A stretch of 64,000 bases of DNA, from the NCBI GenBank assembly GCA_965207735.1, contig OZ242296.1, forward strand, positions 3,200,001-3,264,000. Direction: 5' to 3'. Below the pieces are notes generated by a model. It was given only the letters and a program-made list of their open reading frames with translations, had not been told where the DNA came from and searched no databases. The translations under genes were made by a program, and so were the position numbers. Origin of the DNA: Candidatus Versatilivorator sp. Its GTDB lineage: Bacteria > Acidobacteriota > Terriglobia > Versatilivoradales > Versatilivoraceae. Below, piece by piece: positions 1 through 64,000 of this stretch (position 1 is its first letter; every line of letters begins with the position of its first letter).

Positions 1-2885
1 GTACGCCGCAAGTCCGGGACAAGCTCACGGAAGCCGCCCAGGTATCGTCCTGCGAACAGGTGACCGTTGGGCATTTGGCCGGGTTGACAAGGTTGGATCT
101 ATCGGGGTCTGGCATCGCGTGGCTCGATCAGGACGACTTCAGTGGGCTGAGCCACCTGCAAATCCTTCTATTGAACAACAATATCCTGAGAGATTTGCCC
201 CGGGACGTCTTTGACGGATTGAGAAAACTGGAAACGTTGTGGTTGCAGGACAACTTTCTGAGTGAATTGCCGGAGGGAATTCTTGACGACTTCGTCGTTA
301 CCTTGGAAGACCTGCGCATCGATCCGCGGTTGAAATCCAAAATCCTATTCCATCTGACGAAACAGCATGCGGTCGAAGGCGCGTTTGTGAGGGTGAGAGT
401 GTGGTTGAGCCACGGGCTGCCCGTGGCCGTCCGAGTCCCCTACACGGTGAGTGGCACGGCTTCTGCGAATGAATTTGGGAGACTATCGCCCAGCCCCCAA
501 ACCGGACTTCTATTCTTGGCCGGGGAAAGGTCCCATGAGATTGCCTTCGCTCTGTCTGAGGACGCGGACACATTGGGCAAGACGATCGTTCTGACATTGG
601 GTTCGACCTCCCATATCAGTCTAAAGCGCTCCGATGGCGAGGGAAACGATGCGCCCGGACTGGGTTCCGAGACCTTTCTGGACCGACCGGACGGCAACTC
701 GAGCCACACGGTCACAGTAATTGATTCCGACGAACCGGCAATGGTATGCGGGCGCACCCCTCTGGTGATGGAAAGTTTGATGCGGGCAACCGGGAATTCG
801 ACCTGTGACGACGTCACCCTGGCGGATCTGTCCCGGGTGGAGAGATTGGACTTCAGGAACTCCGACATCAGCACCCTTGAAGCTCACGATTTCAAAGGGC
901 TCAGTTCCTTGGAGTTTCTATGGTTAAGAGACAACGACCTGACGGAATTACCGGAGGAGGTTTTTCACGGTCTGCATAACTTGACGCATCTGACTCTGCA
1001 ATGGAACTCCCTGAACAGGTTGCCCAAGGGAGTTTTTCGGGGACTGCATTCTCTGAAGTCCCTTGGCCTGAACTACAACTCTCTGAGCACGTTGCCCACG
1101 GGAATTTTCAACGAGTCGAACGCTCTGGAAGATTTGACTTTGTATGGCAATTCCTTAAGCCAATTGCCCTCTGGAGCCTTTAGCGGACTGAGCAACCTGC
1201 GTGAGTTGCACTTGCACATCAACCACTTGAATTCCTTGCCGGAGGGGATCTTCCACGGGTTGAGCGCTCTGGAGGAATTGTCCCTAAGCTACAATTCCGT
1301 GAGAAGGCTACCACAGGGGATCTTTCGAGGGTTGAGCGACTTGAAAGGGCTGGGATTGGGACGCAACCAATTAAGCAACTTGCCGGAAGGGGTCTTCAAC
1401 GGACTCGGCAATCTGCAATCCTTGGGGTTGAGTTACAACAACCTGACGAGCTTGCCCAAGGGGCTCTTCAGAGGACTCGGCAATCTCAGGGAGTTGTATT
1501 TGACGGGAAACCCGCTCAGAGATTTACCCGAGGGTGTCGTTGACGATGCACTCGGCACGCTGGGCGCAGACTTTCTCATGAACTTCTCGTTGAATTTGGG
1601 AACCTTTAGACGTGGCAGAGGAACGTTGACCGGAAGACTGGTTGTACCCCCGCACTTGAAGGCCGAGCTCGCTTTCGAATCGCCTGCGCAGCAAGCCCTC
1701 GACGGCGCGTCAGTGAGCGTACCGGTCTCGTTGAGCCGTAGGCTGCCTGTGGCCGTGAGAGTGCCATACACCATTGGCTCCAGCGGGACCGTGGGTCGTT
1801 TGACGGGTCTCTCGCCCGATCCGGACAGCGGCCTGTTGTTTCGGGCCGGAGAGACCCATCAAGAGATTGCCTTCACCTTGCCGCGACAGGTTGGCGCCCA
1901 GGGGGAAAGGGCAGTAATTCTGGATCTGGGCAAACCCTCGGAGATCGGCTTGCGCCGGTCCGACGGCCGGGGACCCGATGCTCCTTACCTTTTGACCGAA
2001 AACCTGGTCCTGCGTTCAGACCAGGGCGCCGTCCACACCGTCACGGTCCTCGACTCCGATCCCCCGGATCGGAAACCGTTCTGCCTGTCCCTCTGGGAGG
2101 GCGCTCCCTGCTGGACAGTATCCAACATGCCGCACGTGTTCCTGGGTCCCCTGGGCGAGAGTATTGCCACCACCGAACTCATCATCACTCACAAGGATCC
2201 CGGCCCGACAGCTTGTGAGGTGGCTGTGCTGTTTCACCGGGGGACCTCGACGGCTCCAGCGATATCGTTCAACGGTCAGTTCCTTTTCCGGAATATTCTC
2301 CGCGCCATCATCCCCAGAGGAGGAGCCGAGGTCCTGACCTTGTCGGCTCCTGACGCACAGGCGCCTGCAGCCGGAGCTGTTTACATCTTCACCCGCTCTC
2401 CCTGCACGGCTGACTCGTTTCATGTGCAGGGACGCTCCTTGCTTGAAAACCAGATCGATGGAGAAATCGACGAGCTGTTTCCCGTAGACCCGCAGTCCGC
2501 AGAAGAGTGGCTGGGTGACGGGGACTGTCGAGTCCTCACAGGTGTATTCGACAATGGCGGCAATGTCGGGATAGCCGCGGTAACCACTCAGCCGGGGCAA
2601 GCCGCTCCGCCCGGAACCCGACTTCGCTTTCAAGCATTCGATCTGCAAGGCAACTTCATCGCCCGGGTACCGGGTCTGGAGGTGTCCGGTGGCTACCAGG
2701 CTGTCTCGCCCTGGCAGTTCGACCAAGCCACTTCCATCCGGATGTGTCTGGACGTACCGGGCAGAAGCGGCTTCCAACTGGCCGTCACTGCTATCGGAGC
2801 CACGGTCAAGGACACCGGAGTGCAATATGTCACCGAGAGCTTCCACGGGGGAGGGGTGTCGGAGGGCAACCGTTCCGATCCGTGA
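1..2885 (+). CDS. Leucine-rich-repeat protein with two Ig/Calx-beta-like spacer domains and an unknown C-terminal domain; 5'-truncated by the window edge
   Basis: The frame is open upstream of GTG 60 (from nt 3: TPQVRDKLTEAAQVSSCEQV). 24-aa LRRs (LxxLxLxxNxLxxLPxxxFxGLxx): about 3 in the first block and 10 in the second. Each block is followed by a homologous LPVAVRVPYT...GLLFxAGE...RSDGxGxDAP module. Confidence 0.9.
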   Translation, partial: TPQVRDKLTEAAQVSSCEQVTVGHLAGLTRLDLSGSGIAWLDQDDFSGLSHLQILLLNNNILRDLPRDVFDGLRKLETLWLQDNFLSELPEGILDDFVVTLEDLRIDPRLKSKILFHLTKQHAVEGAFVRVRVWLSHGLPVAVRVPYTVSGTASANEFGRLSPSPQTGLLFLAGERSHEIAFALSEDADTLGKTIVLTLGSTSHISLKRSDGEGNDAPGLGSETFLDRPDGNSSHTVTVIDSDEPAMVCGRTPLVMESLMRATGNSTCDDVTLADLSRVERLDFRNSDISTLEAHDFKGLSSLEFLWLRDNDLTELPEEVFHGLHNLTHLTLQWNSLNRLPKGVFRGLHSLKSLGLNYNSLSTLPTGIFNESNALEDLTLYGNSLSQLPSGAFSGLSNLRELHLHINHLNSLPEGIFHGLSALEELSLSYNSVRRLPQGIFRGLSDLKGLGLGRNQLSNLPEGVFNGLGNLQSLGLSYNNLTSLPKGLFRGLGNLRELYLTGNPLRDLPEGVVDDALGTLGADFLMNFSLNLGTFRRGRGTLTGRLVVPPHLKAELAFESPAQQALDGASVSVPVSLSRRLPVAVRVPYTIGSSGTVGRLTGLSPDPDSGLLFRAGETHQEIAFTLPRQVGAQGERAVILDLGKPSEIGLRRSDGRGPDAPYLLTENLVLRSDQGAVHTVTVLDSDPPDRKPFCLSLWEGAPCWTVSNMPHVFLGPLGESIATTELIITHKDPGPTACEVAVLFHRGTSTAPAISFNGQFLFRNILRAIIPRGGAEVLTLSAPDAQAPAAGAVYIFTRSPCTADSFHVQGRSLLENQIDGEIDELFPVDPQSAEEWLGDGDCRVLTGVFDNGGNVGIAAVTTQPGQAAPPGTRLRFQAFDLQGNFIARVPGLEVSGGYQAVSPWQFDQATSIRMCLDVPGRSGFQLAVTAIGATVKDTGVQYVTESFHGGGVSEGNRSDP

Positions 2886-2897
2886 GGGTTCCGTGCA

Positions 2898-5800
2898 ATG
2901 CTGACGCCAGTGCGATTGCAATACATTGAAGCCTGTTCCGGGACCGCGATCTGGTCGGTAGTCATCCTGATTGCTCTCGCCTGCCCTGGCTCCTATCGTT
3001 CCCAAAACAGCCTGCCCAATCTCAAACCCTTTCAACCCGAAGGCTGGTCGGACGCCATCGTGGTCTCCAACCGGCAGGACACCAGTACCGACACCCTTGG
3101 ACTGGAAGCCTCCGACAGGATCTACGTGGATTTCGCCGTAATCAACAGCGGCAATTCCCCGGCGGCCGCACCATTTCGAGTCGAGCTCTTCCTGGACGGA
3201 CTGTTGTGGGAGACCTTCGACATTCCTACTCCCCTGGAGCCTCGGGCCTTTCGATTTCGTCTGGATTACCCTCTTGGACAAGTGGGCGCCGGCACCCATA
3301 CCCTCCAAGTCGTCGCCGATGCCGGAGACTCGATCTCGGAGAGCGACGAATCCGATAACGCCTATACACGGACGTTTAACGTCGGCAGCGACTGCTTTCC
3401 TCTGACAACCAGAGTTTCACCCCGGCGAGCCGGGACCCTGACCGTGAGTCGAGCACCCAATTGCGGCGGAAGCACCGTCAGCATCAGCCGATTTGCCGTT
3501 CCTGACGATAGTCCGTCGCGCGAGCCGGGTGAACTTGGCATCGCGGGTGAACCTGTGGTCAATGCCCAACGGGCGCGAGCATTTATCTCCCTTGGGGCGA
3601 GGGTTCAAACGGAGGATCGGGTAAGAGTGATCGTGGGATTGAGAACTGAAGGCCGATCGGTCGGCTCCGCCGCCTCCAGCTTGAGGGTGGCAGCCGCTCG
3701 CACGCCGGTGATTGCTCGCGCCCAGCAATCGGTGGCGAACCGGTTGAACGATCATAATGTGTCCATCATCCGGCGGTTCAAGTTCATTCCCTATGTGGCG
3801 ATGGAGGTGGACGAAGCAGCCTTGGATGCACTTGCTTCGGACCCGGAAGTCGTCAGCATCGAGGAAGATGAAGTCGTCCGGCCGACGCTGGAGGAAAGCG
3901 CGCCGTTGATTGGAGCTCCCCAGGCCTGGGCTCAAGGTTATGACGGTTCGGGACAAGCGATTGCCATCCTGGATACGGGGGTGAACAAGCATCACCCCTT
4001 TCTGTCGGAAAGGGTGGTGTCCGAGGCCTGCTATTCAAGTACGGAAGATCTCTTTTCACCACCGGTATGTCCCGGGGGCGTCAGCGAGTCGACCGGTTCG
4101 GGATCGGCAACCCCCTGTCCCGCGAGTGACTGCTATCACGGAACTTCAGTAGCCGGGGTCGCCGCCGGTCGAGGGACGGACTTCTCGGGCGTGGCCCCGG
4201 GGGCTCGGATCATCGCAATCCAGGTATTCTCTCAATGCTTTATCTCCAGGAACTGCATCCTCTCTTTCAATAGCGATTGGATCGCCGGGTTGGAGCGTGT
4301 TCTCGAGCTGAGCGCCAGCTTCGACATCGCTGCCGTCAACATGAGCTTCGGCGGCAGAACATTCTCGCAGGTATGCGACTCCGAATTCCCGGCTGCAAAA
4401 GACGCCCTGGACAACCTCCGCGCGGTCGGCATCGCCTCCATTGCATCCTCCGGAAACCGCGGCTCCGGCAAAGCCATCGAGTTCCCCGCCTGCATCTCCA
4501 GCGCTGTAAGCGTGGGGTCTACCGGCGACGGCGGTGAAGAGACTAGCTCGGAAACGGTCTCCGAGTTCTCAAACAGCTCACCTTTGCTGGACCTGCTGGC
4601 TCCGGGCGAGTCGATCACTACGTCCGGACCCGACGATAGTTTCGACACGTACAAGGGAACCTCCTATGCCGTTCCGCACGTGGCCGGCGCCTGGGCCGTG
4701 CTGAAATCCAAGGCTCCCAATGCCTCGGTCAGCGAACTGCTTTCCGTGCTGAAGGACACCGGCATCCCCATTGCCGACCCTCGAAACCGTCTCGTCACAC
4801 CCCGCATCCAGGTCGACGCCGCCCTCGACAGGATCGTTGAGGAACTACCCTACTCCTCCGGCACCCGCCTCACTCTGACCGCCAGACCCAATTCCGGATT
4901 TCGGTTCAAGAGCTGGCGGGGATGCGACTCCCCCTCCGGGAACCGGTGCGTGGTGGAGATGGAGTCAACCAAGCAGGTGGTTGCCTTTTTCGAACCGGCA
5001 GCGTCCAGCCTCCCGGATCTGATTACGACTTCACTGACGGGGCCCTCGACGGCGCTCATCGGCAGCACGGCTTCCATCTCCGCCGATATTCGCAATCAGG
5101 GTCCGGCCAACGCCGGTCCCTTCCGGTTGGGCCTCTATCTGTCTACAGACAGCACCATCACCACCGACGACACCTGGTTCGCCGCTTGCTCCTACGAGGC
5201 GGGCCTTCTGGCGGGAGAATCCGAAACCTGCAGCCGTTCCTATCCCATCCCTCCCCGGGTGAGTCCCGGCCGCTACTACCTGGGGGCTATTGTGGACGAT
5301 CTGGATCGGGTGGCCGAGAACAGCGAAACCAACAACGCTCGCGTGTCCGATTCAGGCCCGATGGATGTCCTGGCTCCCAGGACCCTCTCCCGTTCCTTCG
5401 TGCCGGTCATCCTGAGCGCCGAGGGACGCCGGGGCTCCTTCTTCACCTCGGAGCTGACCCTGACCAACCGAGGGTCTCGGGAGGCGAGCCTCAACTACAC
5501 CTACAGGGCACATGCCGGAGGGGGAAGCGGCATAGCCTCGGACCTGCTGGCTCCCGGGGAGCAGAGGATCGAACCCGACGCGCTCGGGCATCTCAGGCGC
5601 CTGGGTATCCCCGTCCCGGAGACGGGCAATCGTATCGGGACCCTGGGGGTTGAAGTCCTGGCCACTGAGGAGGTAGGCGTTCTGGTTCGAACCACGACCC
5701 TGGCGCCCGAGGGACGAGCCGGCCTTTCCTATCCGGGTGTCGCCGGCGGCCACGGGTTCGAGGAGCCGGTCTATCTGTGCGGCTTGCGTCAAAACATCCT

Positions 5801-6839
5801 GGACCGTTCCAACGTGGCCTTTCAGCACATGGGAAGTTCGGACGAGGGACCGATCACGCTGAGGACCACGGTATTCCCCGGGGATGAAGCCGATTCCAAT
5901 TCCCCCGACCTGAAGGACGTGACCCTGGAGCCGGGAGAATTTCACCAGTACTCGGAGGTGTTAGGTACCGTGGCCAACGGCTACGTCCGGGTGGAGCGGG
6001 TCGACGGAAAGGCCCCCTTCTATGCCTACGGGGTCATAAACGACAATGCCAACTCCGACGGCTCCTTCGTCTTTCCGGTCGCTTCCAGCTCCCTGGAGGG
6101 CAGCCTGCGCCACACCCTGCCGGTGATCGTCGAGGTCAACGAGTTCTCCAGCGAACTGACAGTGACCAACTTCTCCGAAGAGACCAAGACCCTCGACTTC
6201 AGCTTCGTGGCCGAGGGGCTCACCACTGCCGACCGCACGGCCCGCTTCAGCCTGAGGCTGGAACCGGGACAGCAGCGGATCATTCCCGACGTCATCGACA
6301 CCGAATTGCGCCGGCAGGGCGTGGAGGGGGTGCCCGCGGGGAGGGGTGGACTGGCCGGGGCTCTGTTCGCCACAGTGAAGAGCGGCGACATGAACGGGAT
6401 CGTGATCGGGGCCCGCACCAGCTCCTCCGACGGCCGCGGCGGGCAGTACGGGGTCTTCTACAACGCCGTGCCCGACGGAGCAGCATTTGGCGGCGCCGCC
6501 TGGATCGATGCCCTGCAGCAGAACGAAGAGAACCGCAGCAACCTGGCCCTGGTCAACACCGGAGAAGTCGACGACAGCCCCAGCGTCTTCGAGATCGACA
6601 TCTACGACGGGGAGACCGGCATGCTGGTCCGGACGGCCAAGACCCAACCGCTCCCCGCACTGCGCTGGCGCCAGATCAACGGAATTCTGGCCGACCATGC
6701 CCGGGGAACCACCCAGGGCTACGTTCGGGTCCGCCGGATTTCCGGCAACAATCCCTTCCTGGCCTACGGGGTAGTCAACGACGGCGGAGCCCCGGGCCAG
6801 CGTAGCGGCGACGGGGCCTACGTCCCGGCGCGCCGGTAG
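2898..6839 (+). CDS. Exported S8 (subtilisin-like) serine protease: CARDB - propeptide - S8 - CARDB - shared C-terminal domain
   Basis: Catalytic motifs ILDTG, HGTSVAG and GTSYAVPHVAG. CARDB signatures VADAGDSISESDESDN and IVDDLDRVAENSETNN. Hydrophobic N-terminus. The C-terminal ~480 aa is homologous to the next two genes. Confidence 0.92.
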   Translation: MLTPVRLQYIEACSGTAIWSVVILIALACPGSYRSQNSLPNLKPFQPEGWSDAIVVSNRQDTSTDTLGLEASDRIYVDFAVINSGNSPAAAPFRVELFLDGLLWETFDIPTPLEPRAFRFRLDYPLGQVGAGTHTLQVVADAGDSISESDESDNAYTRTFNVGSDCFPLTTRVSPRRAGTLTVSRAPNCGGSTVSISRFAVPDDSPSREPGELGIAGEPVVNAQRARAFISLGARVQTEDRVRVIVGLRTEGRSVGSAASSLRVAAARTPVIARAQQSVANRLNDHNVSIIRRFKFIPYVAMEVDEAALDALASDPEVVSIEEDEVVRPTLEESAPLIGAPQAWAQGYDGSGQAIAILDTGVNKHHPFLSERVVSEACYSSTEDLFSPPVCPGGVSESTGSGSATPCPASDCYHGTSVAGVAAGRGTDFSGVAPGARIIAIQVFSQCFISRNCILSFNSDWIAGLERVLELSASFDIAAVNMSFGGRTFSQVCDSEFPAAKDALDNLRAVGIASIASSGNRGSGKAIEFPACISSAVSVGSTGDGGEETSSETVSEFSNSSPLLDLLAPGESITTSGPDDSFDTYKGTSYAVPHVAGAWAVLKSKAPNASVSELLSVLKDTGIPIADPRNRLVTPRIQVDAALDRIVEELPYSSGTRLTLTARPNSGFRFKSWRGCDSPSGNRCVVEMESTKQVVAFFEPAASSLPDLITTSLTGPSTALIGSTASISADIRNQGPANAGPFRLGLYLSTDSTITTDDTWFAACSYEAGLLAGESETCSRSYPIPPRVSPGRYYLGAIVDDLDRVAENSETNNARVSDSGPMDVLAPRTLSRSFVPVILSAEGRRGSFFTSELTLTNRGSREASLNYTYRAHAGGGSGIASDLLAPGEQRIEPDALGHLRRLGIPVPETGNRIGTLGVEVLATEEVGVLVRTTTLAPEGRAGLSYPGVAGGHGFEEPVYLCGLRQNILDRSNVAFQHMGSSDEGPITLRTTVFPGDEADSNSPDLKDVTLEPGEFHQYSEVLGTVANGYVRVERVDGKAPFYAYGVINDNANSDGSFVFPVASSSLEGSLRHTLPVIVEVNEFSSELTVTNFSEETKTLDFSFVAEGLTTADRTARFSLRLEPGQQRIIPDVIDTELRRQGVEGVPAGRGGLAGALFATVKSGDMNGIVIGARTSSSDGRGGQYGVFYNAVPDGAAFGGAAWIDALQQNEENRSNLALVNTGEVDDSPSVFEIDIYDGETGMLVRTAKTQPLPALRWRQINGILADHARGTTQGYVRVRRISGNNPFLAYGVVNDGGAPGQRSGDGAYVPARR

Positions 6840-6927
6840 GATTGGCGGCCAGGGTTCTTCCCTGGTTGCAAGGACAGTCTCAGCCCCTTTCCCCTTCAGG
6901 ACTAGAAGCGTCGTGCGGTTTATTTAC

Positions 6928-6955
6928 TTGACGAAACTACCGCATGGTATAGATT
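6928..6955 (+). promoter_or_regulatory. Putative sigma70 promoter of the 7017 gene
   Basis: TTGACG (6928-6933), 16-bp spacer, TAGATT (6950-6955), in an AT-rich intergenic stretch; GGGAG precedes ATG 7017. Confidence 0.45.
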
Positions 6956-7016
6956 TATAGCCCTTCATCACAGAACTGTCACAGGCGAAGCTCAAAAACA
7001 ACAGGGAGCAATTGTC

Positions 7017-9107
7017 ATGAAATCCAGATCGCTGATGATCGTTTTGGCGTGCGCCATTCTTCTGGTCGCCCTCTTTGCCGAAGTGCGCCCCGCCTCGGCC
7101 CAGGAAGCACCCGCTATCACGGCCCGGGATGTGGTGGACCGGGATTCCCTGAAAACCTTCGTCCAGGGAGCGATTGCATGGTTGGGGGCGCAATTCGAGA
7201 GTGGAGTGGCTGTGGACATTGACGCCCTGAAGGAGGTCTTCAGGATGGACCCTGGGCCCTGGAAGCATGGGTCCACCTACTTCGTTGTGCTGGTTAATAA
7301 CCGTCAAAGTGAAGATTTCATCTTGATATTCTTCGACGCAGGCAATCCGGACCGTGATTCCAAGTTCCTCGGGCTGCTCGAAGACGACAAGGTAGTGAAG
7401 GCCATGAAAGATCTGGTCGCTTTGGCAGTCGAGAATGCGCCCATGATGGAAGGAGGCTTTGTCGAGTATGAAGAGGCAGGCATGAGCAGAGTCAGCTATG
7501 CCCAACTTGTCGTAGCGCCGGCGAACGCAGGAGCTATCGCAGGTCAGGAACTGATCATCAGTGCCGGTTTCAATCCGGGAGACAGTCCAATCGAGATGGA
7601 CGTGATGACGACCTTCGTCCCGGTGGTGCTGGACTCGATGGGGAAGAGCAACTCCCACTTCACTTCGGAGCTGGCCCTGACCAACCGGGGTTCCGATGCG
7701 GCCATGCTCAACTTCACCTATACGGCCGAAGCCGGCGGGGGTAGCGGCATGGCCACCGACATGCTCGGCCCCCACCAGCAGATGATCGCCTCCAACGCCA
7801 TCGACTATCTCAGGAGCCTCAACGTTCCCATTCCCAAAACCGGCAGCCGGGTCGGGACCTTGAGAATGGATGTCTCGGGTTCTTCCGACGTGAGCGCGGT
7901 GGTCCGGACCACCACCCCCACGGCCGTCCCCGAAGGGCGCGCCGGACTGGCCTATCTTGGGATTCCGGAAAACGGGGGATTCCACGACGAAGCGGTTTAC
8001 CTGTGCGGGCTGCGCGACAACCCGGGGGACCGCTCCAACGTGGCCGTCCAGAACATGGGGTCGGAGGGCTCGATCACCTTGAGGATCACGGCCTTTTCCG
8101 GGAATCCGACCGATCCCAGCGGCGAAATGGTGTGGGAAGACACGCTGGGACCGGGAGAGTTCCACCAAGAAAACGCCGTGCTGATGGGGGCTGGCAAGGC
8201 AGCTCCCATTGGGGTCGGCTCTGGGGGCGGCTATGTGAAAGTAGAGCGGGTGGAGGGAATGGCGCCGTTCTACGCCTACGGGGTCATCAACGACAACGCC
8301 AACTCGGACGGCTCCTTTGTCTTTCCGGTCAGCGCCCCCTCGCTGGAGGGAGCCATGGGGCTAACGCTGCCGGCGTTGGTGGAGATTAACCAATTCACCA
8401 CCGAACTGACGCTGACCAACTTCTCGGACCAGCAGAAGGTGCTGATGTTCAGCGCCACCCACGAAAGAATCGAGACGGCGGGCAACACGGTCGGCTTCGG
8501 TCCGGTGCCGCTGGCCCCCGGTCACCAGTACATCATTCCCAATGCGCTCGAATTTGCGCGCCAAACCTACCAACTCGATGTGCCCACCAACCTGGTGGCA
8601 CCCCTGCAGGTCCACGCGGTCGGGGGAGACATGAGCGGGGTCGTGATCGGAGCCCGGGTGGTGGCGCAGGCGGATCCGGAAGATAGGACCAAGGGGCAGT
8701 ACGGCGTCTTCTACACGGCAGTGCCGCGGGGTCAGGGATTCACCACCAGCGCCTGGGTGGACGGGTTGCAGCAGAACGAGGAGAACCGCAGCAACCTGGC
8801 CCTGATCAACACCGGAGAAGTCGACGATGACGCAATCATCTTCGAGCTCGACATCTATGACGGAGAGACCGCCGCGCGGGTCAAGACCGTTACCATGGCG
8901 GAGGAACCCCAAGTCATGGTCCCGGCCAAGGGGTTTCGCCAGATCAACGGCATCCTGGGCACACACGCTCCGGGAACCACGCAGGGCTACGTTGAGATCC
9001 GCAAGGTCTCGGGTGGCAACCCCTTCCTGGCCTACGGAGTGGTCAACGACGGCGGGGCTCCGGGTGAGAGAACCGGTGACGGCGCTTATATCCCGGCCAG
9101 GGAGTAG
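7017..9107 (+). CDS. Secreted protein: one degenerate Cache-like domain plus the shared C-terminal domain
   Basis: Signal peptide ending ...RPASA|QE. Motifs GPWKHGSTYF, GGFVEY and IISAGF. Shared domain runs from FVPVV (7614) to GDGAYIPARE. Confidence 0.85.
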   Translation: MKSRSLMIVLACAILLVALFAEVRPASAQEAPAITARDVVDRDSLKTFVQGAIAWLGAQFESGVAVDIDALKEVFRMDPGPWKHGSTYFVVLVNNRQSEDFILIFFDAGNPDRDSKFLGLLEDDKVVKAMKDLVALAVENAPMMEGGFVEYEEAGMSRVSYAQLVVAPANAGAIAGQELIISAGFNPGDSPIEMDVMTTFVPVVLDSMGKSNSHFTSELALTNRGSDAAMLNFTYTAEAGGGSGMATDMLGPHQQMIASNAIDYLRSLNVPIPKTGSRVGTLRMDVSGSSDVSAVVRTTTPTAVPEGRAGLAYLGIPENGGFHDEAVYLCGLRDNPGDRSNVAVQNMGSEGSITLRITAFSGNPTDPSGEMVWEDTLGPGEFHQENAVLMGAGKAAPIGVGSGGGYVKVERVEGMAPFYAYGVINDNANSDGSFVFPVSAPSLEGAMGLTLPALVEINQFTTELTLTNFSDQQKVLMFSATHERIETAGNTVGFGPVPLAPGHQYIIPNALEFARQTYQLDVPTNLVAPLQVHAVGGDMSGVVIGARVVAQADPEDRTKGQYGVFYTAVPRGQGFTTSAWVDGLQQNEENRSNLALINTGEVDDDAIIFELDIYDGETAARVKTVTMAEEPQVMVPAKGFRQINGILGTHAPGTTQGYVEIRKVSGGNPFLAYGVVNDGGAPGERTGDGAYIPARE

Positions 9108-9329
9108 ACGTTTCCAATGGTGCGCCCCGGGCTTGCGCCCGGCTTACTCCCACGCCTACCTGCGGACGCCGCTTTCACAGCTTGCTGGAATCCCTCGGGC
9201 GGAAGCCCGGGGGCGTGTGGACCCCGCTCTGCCGCAACCGCATAAGCAGCGAATCAGGTGCACCCGTCGAGAATTCGGCGCCCGTCCTGAATATGCCGGG
9301 CTTACCCCTACTGAATCGCGTTAAAAAGG

Positions 9330-10816
9330 GAGCCTTTTGCAAAATTCGGAATCGGGCATGACATTGGGCTGGCAACAGTGATGTTCCGGCGGTGACTACC
9401 CAGCTGCAAAGACCCTTTTGAAGGAAAAAGCCCGAATCTGATGGCCGGATGGCCAGCGGTCGCCGGACGCAGGCACAGCTTACCCTCTCCCGGCCTTGAG
9501 GCGGGCGAACCTGCTGTGCGGTTGGGGGTGGCAACCCGGTCTTCAGAGCGTCAGGCGCATCAACTGATCCACCGTCAGGGCCAGAATGCCGAACATCAGG
9601 TGGCACCTCACCTTGTCGGGGCCGCGAACCCTCACCTGCCTCCCGCCAAACTCCTCCTTGAGCCGTCCGTTGACCCGCTCCACCGTCGAGCGTTCCCGGT
9701 AGCGCCGCGCCTCGGGAGTCACTTGGCCGATACAGCGCCGGGCCAGTGCCTCCCGCTTCCGCTCGGCTTTCAAGGTAGCTCTTCGGCGGGGGTTGACGTC
9801 AATAATCGGCACATGCCCCAGCTTCTCACTGAAGGCCCGGATCTCCGGCGCATCGTAGGCGCTGTCCATCAAGTCGTAGAGACTCTCGACCCGCCTTGCC
9901 GTCAGCGTCGCCAGCGGAATGGCTGCCTGAGAGTCATGCACCGAGGCCGAGGTCAGCAGACAACTGACCGGAATCCCGCCGTCAATGGCGTCGAGGTGTA
10001 GCTTGTAGCCGGTCCAGCTCTCCTGATGCCCCTTGGCGTTGCGCTTGACGCCGATGTCGCAGGCCTTGGGCAACTCCTTCAACATTTCCTCCAGCGTCAT
10101 CGACCCCTGCCGCTCCAGCCGGCTCAACCGCTTGGGCCGTCGCTCGCCCTTCGGCGGCCGGCCCCGCCGGCGTTTCCGCTTGGCCTCCGGCGCAGCCTTG
10201 GCCGCTGGCTTTTCCCGTCCCGCAATCGCCGTCGAGTCCCTCGACACATGCCCCGCCAAGTGGCCCTTCAGCGTCTCCTCCAGCAATGCCTCGTGCAAAC
10301 GCCCCGGCAGGTCGCTCTCAGCGAATTCCGCAAAGGCCCGCGAGAAGGTCGACTCGCTCGGTACCTCCCACGCCCTCTCCCAGCCGCACAGCCGCCGCAG
10401 CCTCCCCTCACTCCTCAGCCGCTCCACCAATCCCCGCGTGGTCGCCACCTCCAGCATCGACTTCGCCAGATAGGCTCGCGCCAGCACTGCCCGATCCTCC
10501 AGCGGCCGGCCACGCCAGCCCCGACTGTAAGGCAGCAACTCCTCCACCCGCACCAACTCCAATACCTGCACCAGCCGCTGGTAACGCTCTCCCAGAGGCC
10601 CCAAAACTTCCTCCAGCAGGGGAAACAGCTCTCGTTGAAACCGGAACCAGTGTCGTGATAGGGTTTCCCTAAGGGGCAAGTTCCACCTCCGTTCATCATG
10701 TGGTTCAGACACCTTCATGATACAACAGACAGTGGTCTTGCCCCTCCTTCCACCTGCCCTCCTTGATCTTTCCCCACGTGAAAATTCCCGCTATCTGCGA
10801 ATTTTGCAAAAGGCTC
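9330..10816 (-). mobile_element. Intact insertion sequence (IS5/IS1182-like DDE), 1487 bp
   Basis: Perfect 19-bp terminal inverted repeats GAGCCTTTTGCAAAATTCG (9330-9348) and CGAATTTTGCAAAAGGCTC (10798-10816). 4-bp target duplication AAGG at 9326-9329 and 10817-10820. One transposase ORF. Confidence 0.95.
9543..10718 (-). CDS. DDE transposase (DUF772-like N-terminus plus DDE_Tnp_1-like catalytic domain)
   Basis: Motifs PSESTFSR, DSTAI, GYKLHL, SVHDSQ, MDSAYD and YRERSTVERVNGRLK. Alternative start TTG at 10679 follows GGAGG. Confidence 0.93.
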   Translation of the reverse strand: MKVSEPHDERRWNLPLRETLSRHWFRFQRELFPLLEEVLGPLGERYQRLVQVLELVRVEELLPYSRGWRGRPLEDRAVLARAYLAKSMLEVATTRGLVERLRSEGRLRRLCGWERAWEVPSESTFSRAFAEFAESDLPGRLHEALLEETLKGHLAGHVSRDSTAIAGREKPAAKAAPEAKRKRRRGRPPKGERRPKRLSRLERQGSMTLEEMLKELPKACDIGVKRNAKGHQESWTGYKLHLDAIDGGIPVSCLLTSASVHDSQAAIPLATLTARRVESLYDLMDSAYDAPEIRAFSEKLGHVPIIDVNPRRRATLKAERKREALARRCIGQVTPEARRYRERSTVERVNGRLKEEFGGRQVRVRGPDKVRCHLMFGILALTVDQLMRLTL

Positions 10817-10830
10817 AAGGAGCACTTACC

Positions 10831-13407
10831 ATGAGATCTCCATCTCCCGTTGTTCTGTTGGCGTGCAGTCTGGTCCTGACCGGCCTCTTCTTCGAGGTGC
10901 GCCCCGCCTCGGCGCAGGCGCAGTTGGAGTGCTCTCGTCCGGAAGGTGTTGCGGAGGCCCCCACCCCCAGCATCACGGCCGCCGAGGTGGCAGCCAACCC
11001 GACCCCCGAAAACCTGAAGCAGTTTGCTCTGGAGGCAAAAAACTACGGCGACGGCCTCGACCATGCCGCGTTGGCCTATGTCATATGCCATTTCAAGCAG
11101 GAAGGGGGGGATTGGAAATCCGGTTCCATCTACATCACTTCGCTGACTTTCCTGGCTGGGGGTAGAGTGGAAATTCACGCCGGAAACATGGCCTTCGGAG
11201 GCAGGAAAGTCCGTGAGGACGTCTTCATGGCCATTGCTGCCGCGACCGGCTTCGATCCGGAAACTCAAATGTTCACCAAGCCGGACGGCGACGTCTTGCC
11301 GGAGGAGCTGGGAGGCTACGCAGTCGGAATGCATGTCAGTTTCGGTCCCATACAGTTCCCGTTAATCATGACGGCCGGCCTGGATCTGCAGGAGACTCAC
11401 CTGGTGCACGAAGTCTTCGATCCCGCCGACGCCCCGGAGGTCACCGCCAGTGAGGTGGTGGACCGGGAGAGCCTGAAGACCTTCGTGAATGGCGCGATCG
11501 ATCGCCTCGGAGAACTGTTCGCGACGGAGGGCTTGGGTGGCCTTACCAAAGCCAAGGCCGTTTTCAGAGAGGAGAACGGGCCTTGGAGAGAAGGTTCGGT
11601 CTACCTCTTCACCCTGGATGCTACCGGCTACGTCTGGTTTCACGGGGCATTTCCGCATCAGTTCGAGTTCGTAGTCGCCACCGGCAGATATATAGATGCC
11701 GTCACCGGAGAACCCATATTCCCCAAGATCATCGAGGCGGCCCAATCAGACCCGGAGGGCGCCTTCATCACCTATCATTTCGACGATCCCGCCGATGACT
11801 CCGACAGCGCGGACATACCCAAGACTGCTTTTGTGCGCCAGCACACCTACCCGGGTTTTGGCTTACCCTTTATCTTCGGCTCCGGCTTCTATACGAGAAC
11901 CGGTCCGCCGGACACCATGACCCAGTTCGTGCCGGTGGTACTGAGCGCGGGAGGCAAGAACAACTCCTACTTCACCTCGGAGCTGGCCCTGACCAACCGG
12001 GGAGCCGACGCGGCCATGCTCAACTTCACCTATACGGCCGATGCCGGCGGGGGCAGCGGCATGGCCACCGACATGCTCGGCCCGCACCAGCAGATGATCG
12101 CCTCCAACGCCATCGAGTATCTCAGGGGCCTCGACGTTCCCATTCCCGAAACCGGCAGCCGGATCGGGACCTTGCGGGTGGATGTGTCGGGGTCTTCCGA
12201 CGTGAGCACGGTGGTCCGGACCACCACTCCCACGGCCGTCCCCGAAGGGCGCGCCGGACTGGCCTATCTGGGGATTCCGGAAAACGAGGGATTCCACCAG
12301 GAAGCCGTCTACCTGTGCGGGCTGCGCGATCACCCGGGGGACCGCTCCAACGTGGCCGTCCAGAACATGGGGTCGGAGGGTGAGATCACCTTGAGGATCA
12401 CGGCCTTTTCCGGCAATCCGACCGATCCCAGCGGCGAAATGGTGTGGGAAGACACGCTGGGGCCGGGAGGGTTCTACCAGGCAAACGCCGTGCTGATGGG
12501 AGCTGGCAAGGCCGATCCCATGTTCGGGGGCTACGTGAAGGTGGAGCGGGTGGAGGGGATGGCTCCCTTCTACGCCTACGGGGTCATCAACGACAACGCC
12601 AACTCGGACGGCTCCTTTGTCTTTCCGGTCAGCGCCCCCTCGCTGGCGGGAGCCATGAGCCAGACCCTGCCGGCCTTGGTGGAGATTAACCAGTTCACCA
12701 CCGAACTGACGCTGACCAACTTCTCGGACCAGCCGAAGCTGGTGATGTTCAGCGCCACCCACGAAAGAATCGAGACGCCGGACAACACGGCCGGCTTCGG
12801 TCCCCTGCCGATGCTGCCGGGTCAGCAGTTGATCATTCCCCATGCGCTGGCCTACGCCCGTCAGAACCTGGGGCTCAATGTGCCCATGGGCCTGGTGGTG
12901 CCCCTGATCGCCAACGCGGTGGAGGGAGATCTCAGCGGGGTCGTGATCGGAGCCCGGGTGGTGGCGCAGGCGGATCCGGAAGATAGGACCAAGGGGCAGT
13001 ACGGCGTCTTCTACACGGCAGTGCCGCGGGGTCAGGGATTCACCACCAGTGCCTGGGTGGACGGGTTGCAGCAGAACGAGGAGAACCGCGGCAACCTGGC
13101 CCTGGTCAACACCGGAGAGGTCGACAGCAGCGCCAGTGTCTTCGAGCTCGACATCTATGACGGGGAGACCGCCACGCTGGTGAAGACCGTTACCATGGCG
13201 GAGGAACCCCAAGCCATGGTCCCGGCCAGGGGCTTCCGCCAGATCAACGGCATCCTGGGCGCACACGCCCCGGGAACCACGCAGGGCTACGTCAGAATCC
13301 GCAAGGTCTCGGGGGCCAATCCCTTCCTGGCCTACGGAGTCGTCAACGACGGCGGGGCTCCGGGTGAGAGAACCGGTGACGGCGCCTATATCCCGGCCAG
13401 GGAGTAG
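10831..13407 (+). CDS. Secreted protein: two Cache-like domains plus the shared C-terminal domain
   Basis: ATG 10831 follows AAGGAG; the ORF-track start at 10717 lies inside the IS. Signal peptide is paralogous to the 7017 gene (FxEVRPASAQ). sCache_2-like motifs YLFTLDATGYVWFHG, KIIEAA, FITYHFDDP, KTAFV and IFGSGFY. Confidence 0.88.
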   Translation: MRSPSPVVLLACSLVLTGLFFEVRPASAQAQLECSRPEGVAEAPTPSITAAEVAANPTPENLKQFALEAKNYGDGLDHAALAYVICHFKQEGGDWKSGSIYITSLTFLAGGRVEIHAGNMAFGGRKVREDVFMAIAAATGFDPETQMFTKPDGDVLPEELGGYAVGMHVSFGPIQFPLIMTAGLDLQETHLVHEVFDPADAPEVTASEVVDRESLKTFVNGAIDRLGELFATEGLGGLTKAKAVFREENGPWREGSVYLFTLDATGYVWFHGAFPHQFEFVVATGRYIDAVTGEPIFPKIIEAAQSDPEGAFITYHFDDPADDSDSADIPKTAFVRQHTYPGFGLPFIFGSGFYTRTGPPDTMTQFVPVVLSAGGKNNSYFTSELALTNRGADAAMLNFTYTADAGGGSGMATDMLGPHQQMIASNAIEYLRGLDVPIPETGSRIGTLRVDVSGSSDVSTVVRTTTPTAVPEGRAGLAYLGIPENEGFHQEAVYLCGLRDHPGDRSNVAVQNMGSEGEITLRITAFSGNPTDPSGEMVWEDTLGPGGFYQANAVLMGAGKADPMFGGYVKVERVEGMAPFYAYGVINDNANSDGSFVFPVSAPSLAGAMSQTLPALVEINQFTTELTLTNFSDQPKLVMFSATHERIETPDNTAGFGPLPMLPGQQLIIPHALAYARQNLGLNVPMGLVVPLIANAVEGDLSGVVIGARVVAQADPEDRTKGQYGVFYTAVPRGQGFTTSAWVDGLQQNEENRGNLALVNTGEVDSSASVFELDIYDGETATLVKTVTMAEEPQAMVPARGFRQINGILGAHAPGTTQGYVRIRKVSGANPFLAYGVVNDGGAPGERTGDGAYIPARE

Positions 13408-62994: not shown

Positions 62995-63049
62995 GCCTCG
63001 ACCCAATCACAGTGATCGGCGGGACCACCGCCTCGGCTAGCGGAAAATA

Positions 63050-64000
63050 ATGATGACCATTCAATCGAGAGTTCTGAAGACACTTGCCGTGACCTTACTC
63101 GTTTTCACGCCAACCGCACCTGAAGGGTTCGGACAGGGCACGTCGCCAGATCTTTCCTTTTCCAGCCTGAACGACATTGCCCTCGACGCCGAGGGCAATA
63201 TTCTGGTTGTCGATTCCGATTCCAACCGGGTCTACAGGGTCACGCGTGACGGAAACATCTCCGTGTTCGCCGGTACCGGGCGACAGAGAGCAGACGGGGA
63301 CTCGGGCGGCGACGGCGGGCCCGCAACCGAAGCTCATTTGCGTTATCCGGAAAGTATCGCCGTGGGTTCGCAGAACGAGGTCTATATTTCCGACGAAGAC
63401 CGAGTCCGCCGGGTAGATGCCAGAGGCATTATCACGACCATCGCCGGAAGCGGGAATTCGGGAGACGGTTTAGCCCGTGGGCAGATTGCAACCGACTTTC
63501 GCCTACACGATTTAAGAGCCATTGAATACGACCCGCGTTCAGGAAGATTGTACATCTGGCAAAGGAATCAACGAATCTGGCGGGTTGAGAATGACAGGAT
63601 CTTTCATTTTGCAGGAAGTGGAGGGACAGGATGTAGGGGCGATGCAGAACATCCGACCCAGGCGCAATTCGACTATATTGCTGACATGTCGGTCGGCCCC
63701 GACGGATCACTTTACTTGGCCGACGGTATTCGTATTCGCAAGATCGACCCTGCCGGGTCCACGATCACATCGGTCGCCGGTAACGGGAGATTCTGGGACA
63801 GACGGATCGCGGATGGAACACCCGCCCTCAGAACGGGCATGCGGCGTCCTCGAGGATTGGCCTTTGACTCTCGGGGACTGTTGCACTATGGAAATGATGA
63901 CGGAGACATCTATCGGCTTGAGTCTAACGGAACACTGACACTGTTCGCCGATCTGTTCGATTTGCGGGGCACCACACAGAGCGGCAGGATGTTCTTCGAA
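63050..64000 (+). CDS. Secreted NHL-repeat protein, 3'-truncated by the window edge and absent from the ORF track
   Basis: Manual translation from ATG 63050: MMTIQSRVLKTLAVTLLVF...IALDAEGNILVVDSDSNRVYRV...VFAGTG...GDGGPATEAHLRYPESIAV...ITTIAGSG. Confidence 0.88.
   Translation, partial: MMTIQSRVLKTLAVTLLVFTPTAPEGFGQGTSPDLSFSSLNDIALDAEGNILVVDSDSNRVYRVTRDGNISVFAGTGRQRADGDSGGDGGPATEAHLRYPESIAVGSQNEVYISDEDRVRRVDARGIITTIAGSGNSGDGLARGQIATDFRLHDLRAIEYDPRSGRLYIWQRNQRIWRVENDRIFHFAGSGGTGCRGDAEHPTQAQFDYIADMSVGPDGSLYLADGIRIRKIDPAGSTITSVAGNGRFWDRRIADGTPALRTGMRRPRGLAFDSRGLLHYGNDDGDIYRLESNGTLTLFADLFDLRGTTQSGRMFFE

What the first reader, a model, noticed from the sequence alone, without database searches (positions are those of the whole stretch)
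5397..13404. A ~480-500 aa C-terminal carrier domain shared by three tandem exported proteins with unrelated passengers
Seen: the S8 protease (from 5397), the one-Cache protein (from 7614) and the two-Cache protein (from 11926) all end in the same domain, FVPV.L...FTSEL.LTNRG through AYGVVNDGGAPG.R.GDGAY.PAR[RE]-stop. It is an internal duplication: each half has P....F..EL..TN, then RSN.A..N.G and YV......G..PF.AYGV.ND...DG. It is always C-terminal, shows no TM helix, LPXTG or SLH motif, and does not end in an aromatic residue as autotransporter barrels do. Inference: a lineage-specific sorting, anchoring or S-layer-like display module that carries swappable cargo, analogous to but distinct from T9SS CTD or PEP-CTERM. 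This is my best candidate for an undescribed system.
Basis: partly seen in the sequence, partly recalled or inferred. Interest (0 to 1): 0.85.

Follow-up and report, generated by a model that had tools for sequence, protein, structure and literature searches.

The report
Four-domain display tag mimicking S-layer hub
This acidobacterium attaches the same 480-residue, four-part module to the end of 36 very different exported proteins, and the module is predicted to share its fold with the ring-forming tip of a likely surface-coat (S-layer) protein, so it probably serves as a plug-in tag that holds enzymes and adhesins on the cell surface.

Summary
The module begins exactly at 5397, 7614 and 11926 and has no Pfam or NCBIfam match. 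This genome holds 36 full copies, all C-terminal, on LRR, NHL, fn3/cadherin, protease, sulfatase and other cargo. It is found in 24 of 24 genomes of the same family and in none of 16 other same-class genomes. 'Always C-terminal' fails elsewhere: about 15 of the top 150 homologues carry it right after the signal peptide. AlphaFold gives four beta-sandwiches whose best match is TM1070, the ASRAH superfamily (known to form dyads and tetrads). New here: a hypervariable exported protein lies beside the type II secretion secretin in 14 of 17 genomes. It has two Ig-like domains plus one TM1070-fold domain, resembles Slr4/AvsA S-layer proteins, and that domain is predicted to form a four-membered ring (0.83, controls 0.00). 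The module is therefore most likely a fused copy of that ring, used for display. Export route, binding partner and the S-layer itself are inferred, not shown. Sequence homology between module and S-layer domain was not detected.

The parts
2898..6839 (+). Exported S8 serine protease: signal-like leader, CARDB, I9 propeptide, S8, InlB-B-like repeat, CARDB, then the module
5397..6836 (+). Module copy 1 (480 aa), four predicted beta-sandwiches A1 (about 5397-5750), B1 (5751-6092), A2 (6093-6482), B2 (6483-6836); the A-B dyad is duplicated
7017..9107 (+). Exported protein with one weakly Cache-like domain plus the module
7614..9104 (+). Module copy 2 (497 aa)
9543..10718 (-). IS transposase (DDE_Tnp_1 + DUF772) inserted between genes 2 and 3; not part of the system
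10831..13407 (+). Exported protein with two weakly Cache-like domains plus the module; the likely start is the second Met (MRSPS...), the ORF caller's start at 10717 overlaps the IS end
11926..13404 (+). Module copy 3 (493 aa)
52758..54110 (+). Exported protein with a divergent (type 2) two-domain version of the module right after the leader
   Evidence: type-2 profile E 1e-29
63041..64000 (+). 5' part of a further carrier (NHL + trypsin); its module lies beyond the window end
   Evidence: L020

Best explanation
The 480-residue module is a fused set of four predicted ASRAH (TM1070-type) beta-sandwiches that likely acts as a non-covalent surface-display tag: Sec-exported cargo would cross the outer membrane through the type II secretion system, and the module would then hold it on the surface by doing what four copies of the likely S-layer protein's C-terminal domain are predicted to do as a ring. 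Shown: copy number, terminal position, cargo diversity and shuffling, family restriction, and the gspD-next-to-candidate gene order. Predicted: the fold of the module and of the candidate's C-terminal domain, and the ring. Inferred: that the candidate is the S-layer protein; that the T2SS exports the cargo; and that the shared job is binding a surface glycan (LPS or polysaccharide) or filling a four-fold node of the lattice.
For: (1) 36 full copies in G000, all ending within 17 aa of the stop. Passengers include LRR, NHL, fn3/cadherin stalks up to 4,381 aa, spondin, M12B, M9, S8, trypsin, sulfatase and GSDH. 23 of 36 pass a crude signal-peptide test and several more look like signals by eye. 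(2) Modules 87-91% identical sit on passengers with no BLAST similarity (LRR, collagenase, trypsin). (3) The module works at either end. In homologues it follows the leader and precedes an LRR linker, the slot that a divergent type-3 tetrad fills in G000. (4) AF2 pLDDT 95; best structural match TM1070 1nc7, Z 11.4, rmsd 2.8, 110 of 116 aligned; next ASRT 2ii7, Z 7.7. (5) The genome has LpxC and BamA, so cargo must cross an outer membrane. It has a gsp cluster (E, F, G, H, two more pseudopilins, M and a secretin) and only two partial autotransporter hits. (6) About 2 kb downstream of the secretin lie two paralogous exported, acidic, Gly/Ala/Thr-rich proteins with a variable N-part and a conserved C-terminal domain. 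Their model has Ig-like sandwiches plus a C-terminal domain whose top hit is again TM1070 (Z 11.9, rmsd 2.5, 106 aligned). The Atlas neighbours include 'S-layer protein Slr4 domain' (0.93). Secretin and candidate lie within 8 kb in 14 of 17 genomes checked. Slr4 and AvsA, proven S-layer proteins, also lie just downstream of T2SS genes (PMC7821379; bioRxiv 2025.04.15.648961). (7) Four copies of the candidate's C-terminal domain score 0.83 against a best control of 0.00 (runs share at least 76% of contacts, pLDDT at least 76). The mark was reached by 20 of 30 true pairs and 1 of 23 single-chain proteins, counts that hold only roughly for four copies. Each copy touches neighbours with two different faces, as in a ring.
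Against: Profile comparison finds no sequence link between the candidate's C-terminal domain and the module (0.2%; best 9.7% to a third acidobacterial variant), so the link rests on a shared predicted fold. The ring may be predicted from memory of the solved TM1070 tetramer, and I could not superpose it on the module's own domain arrangement. Co-distribution is imperfect. Family f57 has strong module matches but no match to the candidate profile. Family f5 has the candidate but not the module. 4 of 24 family relatives gave no candidate match. The candidate does not match PF19526, and no S-layer has been imaged in this lineage. T2SS export of 3,000-5,000-aa chains is beyond the substrates I recall. 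A related dyad sits on a propeller protein encoded inside the bamA-skp operon, which may be periplasmic.
Confidence: 0.55

Rival explanations
1. The module is a folded recognition signal for the T2SS only; cargo is exported and released into the matrix rather than held on the cell.
For: The gspD-linked candidate and the cargo share the same predicted domain type. Position at either terminus fits a conformational signal. Many passengers are hydrolases.
Against: Long fn3/cadherin stalks ending at the module look like tethered adhesins. A fourfold repeat suggests avidity binding. T2SS genes also occur in genomes without the module (G036).
Confidence: 0.15
2. The module is an accessory lectin (CBM-like) that binds host or substrate glycans and has no role in sorting or anchoring to the producer cell.
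For: ASRAH domains were proposed to bind sugars (PMC2739507). Several lower-ranked structural neighbours are CBMs. Many polar residues are near-invariant (E19, R98, R131, R137, D216, D221, R340, R380, D462, D472).
Against: One ligand would have to suit proteases, sulfatase, LRR and Cache-like cargo alike. The module is kept by all 24 family genomes searched. The same fold ends the candidate S-layer protein.
Confidence: 0.13
3. The module works inside the envelope: it binds peptidoglycan, or pairs with the dyad of a BAM-linked propeller protein that routes cargo through BamA.
For: A leader + propeller + type-2 dyad gene was found in 23 of 25 family genomes, directly after bamA in all 20 where the contig allows. 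It was duplicated along with bamA in G014. Chloroflexi tetrads are fused to peptidoglycan amidases.
Against: That dyad is a different subtype (HHalign 94-95% to the module). The gene is missing between bamA and lpxD in module-bearing G185. Giant adhesin-like cargo makes little sense in the periplasm.
Confidence: 0.12
4. The module is a cleaved C-terminal sorting signal like the T9SS CTD or PEP-CTERM, with a dedicated sortase or translocon.
For: 36 of 36 copies in G000 are C-terminal with a conserved GDGA(Y/F)xPARE end.
Against: About 15 of 150 homologues have it N-terminally and 5 internally, with the same end motif running on into cargo. There is no TM helix or basic tail. It is four folded domains, not a short signal.
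Confidence: 0.05

Closest known systems
ASRAH superfamily (ASRT PF07100, TM1070 PDB 1NC7; De Souza, Iyer, Aravind 2009, PMC2739507)
   Same: Predicted fold (Z 11.4), conserved Asn ending strand 2, occurrence as dyads and tetrads in secreted proteins, proposed binding of surface sugars.
   Different: The sections read describe three families (cytoplasmic solo, Chloroflexi amidase tetrads, actinobacterial lipoprotein dyads). They describe no acidobacterial family, no multi-cargo expansion and no link to S-layers or T2SS. The paper's supplement was not read.
DUF5719 (PF18986)
   Same: Nearest named Atlas neighbour (0.94). Linked through intermediate profiles: the module profile hits DUF5719-positive acidobacterial tetrads at E 1e-27 to 1e-19.
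   Different: None of 36 copies matches PF18986 directly; the WYFAEG motif is absent.
Slr4 (PF19526), AvsA and NpdA: T2SS-linked S-layer proteins
   Same: Applies to the candidate partner, not the module: gene just downstream of T2SS genes, Sec leader, about 570 aa. AvsA is modelled as two Ig-like domains plus a third sandwich and lies next to rfbD; Slr4 forms a p4 lattice.
   Different: No PF19526 match. The passages read report no cargo family that carries a fused copy of an S-layer domain.
TIGR03437 Soli_cterm (lineage-expanded acidobacterial C-terminal domain)
   Same: Same idea: a many-copy terminal domain on acidobacterial exported proteins (description recalled; distribution).
   Different: No match to the module. 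Genomes with 78-102 candidates (G036, G055, G273) are not among the DUF5719- or module-positive ones, although some genomes have both (G133, G119, G077).
SLH, CWB2 and similar non-covalent envelope anchors (recalled)
   Same: A repeat module shared by S-layer proteins and by many surface enzymes, found at either terminus.
   Different: Different fold, no Pfam match, diderm host.
T9SS CTD and PEP-CTERM/MYXO-CTERM (recalled)
   Same: Many-copy terminal tag on unrelated exported cargo.
   Different: Those are short, strictly C-terminal and processed. This is 480 aa, four folded domains, and is also found N-terminally.

Membership tests
ASRAH superfamily | Beta-sandwich of TM1070/ASRT topology | tested here: met
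   1nc7 Z 11.4, rmsd 2.8, 110 of 116 aligned on residues 230-362 (domain A2), the only Z >= 8 among 48,161 chains; 2ii7 Z 7.7. The other three domains were not searched singly; A1-A2 and B1-B2 are homologous
ASRAH superfamily | Near-invariant Asn at the end of strand 2 | tested here: met
   N24 99%, N258 99%, N387 97% of 181 sequences; the B1 position is Asn in the consensus but His in the S8 copy
ASRAH superfamily | Conserved Trp at the start of strand 1 | tested here: inconclusive
   W369 (97%) in B2; by eye Phe, Tyr or Leu in the other three; no residue-level structural alignment was available
ASRAH superfamily | Secreted forms occur as dyads or tetrads | tested here: met
   duplicated A-B dyad; single dyads also in G000
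ASRAH superfamily | Sugar or small-molecule binding cleft | not testable with these tools
   only conservation of polar residues is seen
ASRT family proper (PF07100) | Stand-alone cytoplasmic domain with the SHEshChhN signature | tested here: not met
   fused and exported; strand 2 reads SELTLTN / SNVAFQN; no Pfam hit
DUF5719 (PF18986) | Match to the profile above the cut-off | tested here: not met
   0 of 36 copies at E <= 1; only an indirect link
T9SS CTD | Short, strictly C-terminal signal matching the CTD models | tested here: not met
   no NCBIfam or Pfam hit; 480 aa; N-terminal forms exist
T9SS CTD | T9SS translocon SprA in the genome | tested here: inconclusive
   0 of 4 genomes, but the controls did not ring either
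PEP-CTERM / LPXTG-type signals | Motif + TM helix + basic tail | tested here: not met
   highest 19-residue hydropathy 1.65 in 36 copies
Autotransporter (T5SS) | C-terminal beta-barrel ending in an aromatic residue | tested here: not met
   model is four sandwiches; ends in ARE, SQE etc.
TIGR03437 Soli_cterm | Match to the profile | tested here: not met
Slr4 family (candidate partner, outside the window) | Match to PF19526 | tested here: not met
   only language-model similarity 0.93
T2SS-linked S-layer proteins (candidate partner) | Exported multi-sandwich protein encoded next to the gsp cluster | tested here: met
   14 of 17 genomes; model
T2SS-linked S-layer proteins (candidate partner) | Most abundant surface protein, forms a 2D lattice | not testable with these tools
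   no RNA run listed; codon bias uninformative; ring predicted only

The most novel reading that the evidence does not exclude
Many Acidobacteriota build a T2SS-exported square-lattice S-layer whose four-fold hub is made of ASRAH domains, and they decorate it with dozens of enzymes and eukaryote-like adhesins by fusing each to a single-chain copy of that hub. This would be a plug-in S-layer display system with several interchangeable hub subtypes (types 1-3 here, DUF5719-like ones elsewhere in the phylum). By extension, the Slr4/AvsA S-layer tips may be ASRAH domains too.
Probability: 0.35. Interest if true: 0.88.

Novelty: new variant of a known kind. Interest (0 to 1): 0.72.

Why it matters
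If right, it names the route by which an uncultured acidobacterial lineage puts LRR, NHL, fn3 and cadherin proteins and hydrolases on its surface. How symbionts display such proteins is poorly known; the sponge association of Ca. Versatilivorator is recalled, not shown here. It gives a specific S-layer candidate for a phylum in which S-layers were called 'ambiguous' (Johnston et al. 2024). It gives the ASRAH/DUF5719 domains a concrete, testable role. It also gives a marker: the module picks out a genome's surface proteome (36 proteins here, 1,473 clusters at 50% identity in public data). Cultured Acidobacteriota that carry the candidate S-layer gene could be imaged directly.

Tried and rejected
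Pfam, NCBIfam and PDB sequence searches of the module found nothing significant. Foldseek on the whole module gave only generic multi-sandwich hits, TM <= 0.16; on the S-layer candidate it gave generic adhesin Ig hits. Direct profile comparison of the candidate's C-terminal domain with the module, its quarters and the bamA-linked protein was negative. The codon-bias test for high expression was uninformative: scores span only about +/-0.03, the candidates rank at the 58th and 82nd percentiles, and the reference set was 8 genes. No RNA holder was listed. The SprA search was inconclusive. A G185 ORF that weakly hit both DUF5719 and Slr4 was checked as a possible f57 S-layer protein; it is a repeat protein with one dyad, so it was rejected. 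The blanket neighbourhood clustering of module genes timed out and gave no result; a planned profile scan of 20 candidate loci could not be run. The C-terminal domain of the LRR protein at the window start does not align to the module (at most 7%). Literature searches found no paper for 'Versatilivorator', 'DUF5719' or 'TIGR03437/Soli_cterm'. Searches listed no paper describing this module or an acidobacterial S-layer; subscription journals are not covered.

Full report
Observation. Three + strand genes (2898-6839, 7017-9107, 10831-13407) end in a shared 480-497-aa module that starts at 5397, 7614 and 11926, exactly as reported. It has no Pfam, NCBIfam or PDB sequence match. The two halves are homologous (HHalign 100%, E 9e-46); the two domains within a half do not align to each other by profile (3%). 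The first gene is an S8 protease. The other two are paralogues whose passenger repeats are only weakly Cache-like. An IS lies between them.

Scale. A profile from the three copies finds 40 ORFs in the genome (G000), 36 with the full module, all ending within 17 residues of the stop; pairwise identity is 38-99%, median 61%. The 33 passengers outside the window carry LRR, NHL, fn3, cadherin, spondin, M12B, M9, S8, trypsin, sulfatase, GSDH, SBBP or TIG domains; 1 of 33 had no Pfam hit. 23 of 36 pass a crude hydrophobic-leader test. One of these is a false call, about six more look like signals by eye, and about seven ORFs start in mid-domain and appear 5'-broken; no signal-peptide predictor was available. 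Modules 87-91% identical sit on passengers with no similarity, which shows recent shuffling.

Range. Matches were found in 24 of 24 genomes of the same family (2-39 matches each) and in 0 of 16 other same-class genomes. In a phylum-wide sample 8 of 300 matched, strongly in one family (f57) and weakly in three; only 5 candidates per genome were scored there. Record titles of the closest loci name Ca. Versatilivorator / Versatilivoraceae / Terriglobia. Four of 77 loci are labelled Acidimicrobiia or Chloroflexota, on contigs of 2-65 kb; mis-binning versus transfer was not tested. One homologue is labelled Thermoanaerobaculia. Among cluster representatives, 1,473 match at E <= 0.001. Of the best 150, 123 carry the module C-terminally, 20 N-terminally (15 genuine by eye, 5 truncated or frameshifted), 5 internally and 2 almost alone. 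This rules out a strictly C-terminal processed signal.

Fold. AF2 gives four beta-sandwiches (pLDDT 95, pTM 0.92). The wide structural search puts TM1070 first (Z 11.4, rmsd 2.8, 110 of 116) and ASRT second (Z 7.7). These define the ASRAH superfamily. Its description (PMC2739507; parts 1 and 2 of 3 of the text read, supplement not) notes a conserved Asn after strand 2, secreted dyads and tetrads, a TM1070 tetramer and probable sugar binding. The Asn is conserved here. The Atlas's nearest named neighbours are DUF5719/ASRT clusters. DUF5719 matches 53 of 301 phylum genomes, mostly in long ORFs. The module's profile hits several of those proteins (E down to 1e-27), and profile-profile links join the module, three other acidobacterial variants and the WYFAEG form. 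G000 also has other subtypes: type-2 dyads and one type-2 tetrad, six proteins with type-3 units at or near the N-terminus, and single dyads.

Export context. G000 has LpxC and one Omp85 gene, three secretins, a gsp cluster with E, F, G, H, two further pseudopilins and M, preceded by GT2, RmlD and epimerase genes, and only two partial autotransporter hits. About 2 kb downstream of the cluster's secretin lie two paralogous exported proteins of about 570 aa, rich in Gly, Ala, Thr and Asp. Homologues occur in 20 of 24 family genomes with 33-69% identity within the genus; the C-terminal 170 aa are the conserved part. The model (pLDDT 89) has Ig/pilin-like sandwiches and a C-terminal domain whose top hit is again TM1070 (Z 11.9, rmsd 2.5, 106 aligned). 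The Atlas places that domain near 'S-layer protein Slr4 domain' clusters (0.93; PF19526 on 28% of one cluster), though PF19526 itself does not match. Secretin and candidate lie within 8 kb in 14 of 17 genomes checked: six of the genus, G015, G017, G018, G024, G031, G237, G297 and G306; not in G014, G036 or G169. These genomes are related and not independent. Proven S-layer genes show the same order: slr4 (p4 lattice; passages of PMC7821379), npdA (passages of PMC10765051) and avsA, which lies between pulD and rfbD and is modelled as two Ig-like domains plus a third sandwich (passages and one section). Johnston et al. call S-layers in Acidobacteriota ambiguous (abstract, parts 2 and 3 of Results and passages). 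Their closed supplement may list an acidobacterial model.

Ring prediction. Four copies of the candidate's C-terminal domain (residues 5-155 of alignment A5) scored 0.83 against a best control of 0.00. The runs shared at least 76% of contacts, with pLDDT at least 76. The mark was reached by 20 of 30 true pairs and 1 of 23 single-chain proteins, counts that hold only roughly for four copies with my own alignment. One copy uses two distinct faces for its two neighbours and residues 140-148 meet centrally, as in a cyclic ring. Likeness to the solved TM1070 tetramer may explain the pass.

Mechanism. The simplest reading is that the candidate is a T2SS-exported S-layer protein whose ASRAH tips form a four-fold hub, and that the module is that hub fused into one chain. 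Any cargo carrying it at either end could then use the same gate and dock on the same surface ligand or lattice site. Each step after the gene-level facts is prediction or inference.

Against. No sequence homology was detected between the candidate's domain and the module (0.2%). I could not compare the module's domain packing with the ring. f57 has the module without a detectable candidate, and f5 has the candidate with TIGR03437 expansions instead. A type-2 dyad on a propeller protein is encoded directly after bamA in 20 of 20 family genomes where the contig allows (found in 23 of 25), which keeps a periplasmic or BAM-linked role open. No expression data exist.

Verdict. A real, unnamed, massively expanded ASRAH-tetrad family: a new variant of a known superfamily. 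Its probable link to an undescribed acidobacterial S-layer and T2SS was not found in the searches; find-searches of three further papers had no mention either. Interest 0.72.

Noticed in passing
G000 C1:2243648-2248326 (L150, L186, L213), outside the window: Two tandem candidate S-layer genes just downstream of the T2SS secretin. In G015, G017, G018 and G024 the order is gspD - candidate - DUF1573 gene; in G014, G017 and G018 TPR proteins follow, some with a PMT_2 mannosyltransferase domain (possible S-layer glycosylation).
   Followed up: yes
G000 C1:2615010-2616758 (L144:11008-12759, minus strand): Single-copy gene (leader + YVTN-like propeller + type-2 ASRAH-like dyad) between bamA and skp-fabZ-lpxA across the family, duplicated along with bamA in G014; a possible lineage-specific BAM accessory.
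   Followed up: partly
window 60-2885 (end of G000 C1:3196715-3202885): LRR protein directly upstream with a different C-terminal domain of about 270 aa, found in 3-4 G000 proteins; no Pfam hit, not alignable to the module (at most 7%); perhaps a very divergent dyad.
   Followed up: partly
window 52758-54110 and G000 C1:4484514-4485983: Two paralogous exported proteins with an N-terminal type-2 dyad followed by a small unknown beta domain.
   Followed up: partly
G000 C1:4999990-5005134, 734684-737260, 1527761-1530253, 4003727-4007905, 4021284-4025663, 1080228-1081442, 3173453-3178561: Type-3 ASRAH-like dyads or tetrads near the N-terminus of exported proteins; one is followed by the same LRR linker that follows N-terminal type-1 modules in relatives, suggesting interchangeable subtypes.
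   Followed up: partly
G000 C1:3326494-3327363, 2982118-2983362, 4327470-4330328, 3878242-3878709: Single-dyad proteins of a further subtype, one of them leader + dyad alone.
   Followed up: no
window 7101-7610, 10918-11922: Cache-like repeats in exported proteins with no TM helix or signalling domain; unusual for a sensor fold if the assignment holds.
   Followed up: partly
L055, L067, L088, L100: Close module copies (63-67% identical) in records labelled Acidimicrobiia or Chloroflexota on small contigs: mis-binning or transfer, untested.
   Followed up: no
G000 C1:2248000-2268000 (L216): The gsp cluster is interrupted by an IS and by copies of a dispersed repeat, with a duplicated pseudopilin gene start; whether all genes are intact was not checked.
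   Followed up: no
window 9543-10718; G000 C1 near 2988000 (L154:14121-15296): The same IS transposase occurs elsewhere in the genome; its end creates a false upstream start for the third gene.
   Followed up: partly
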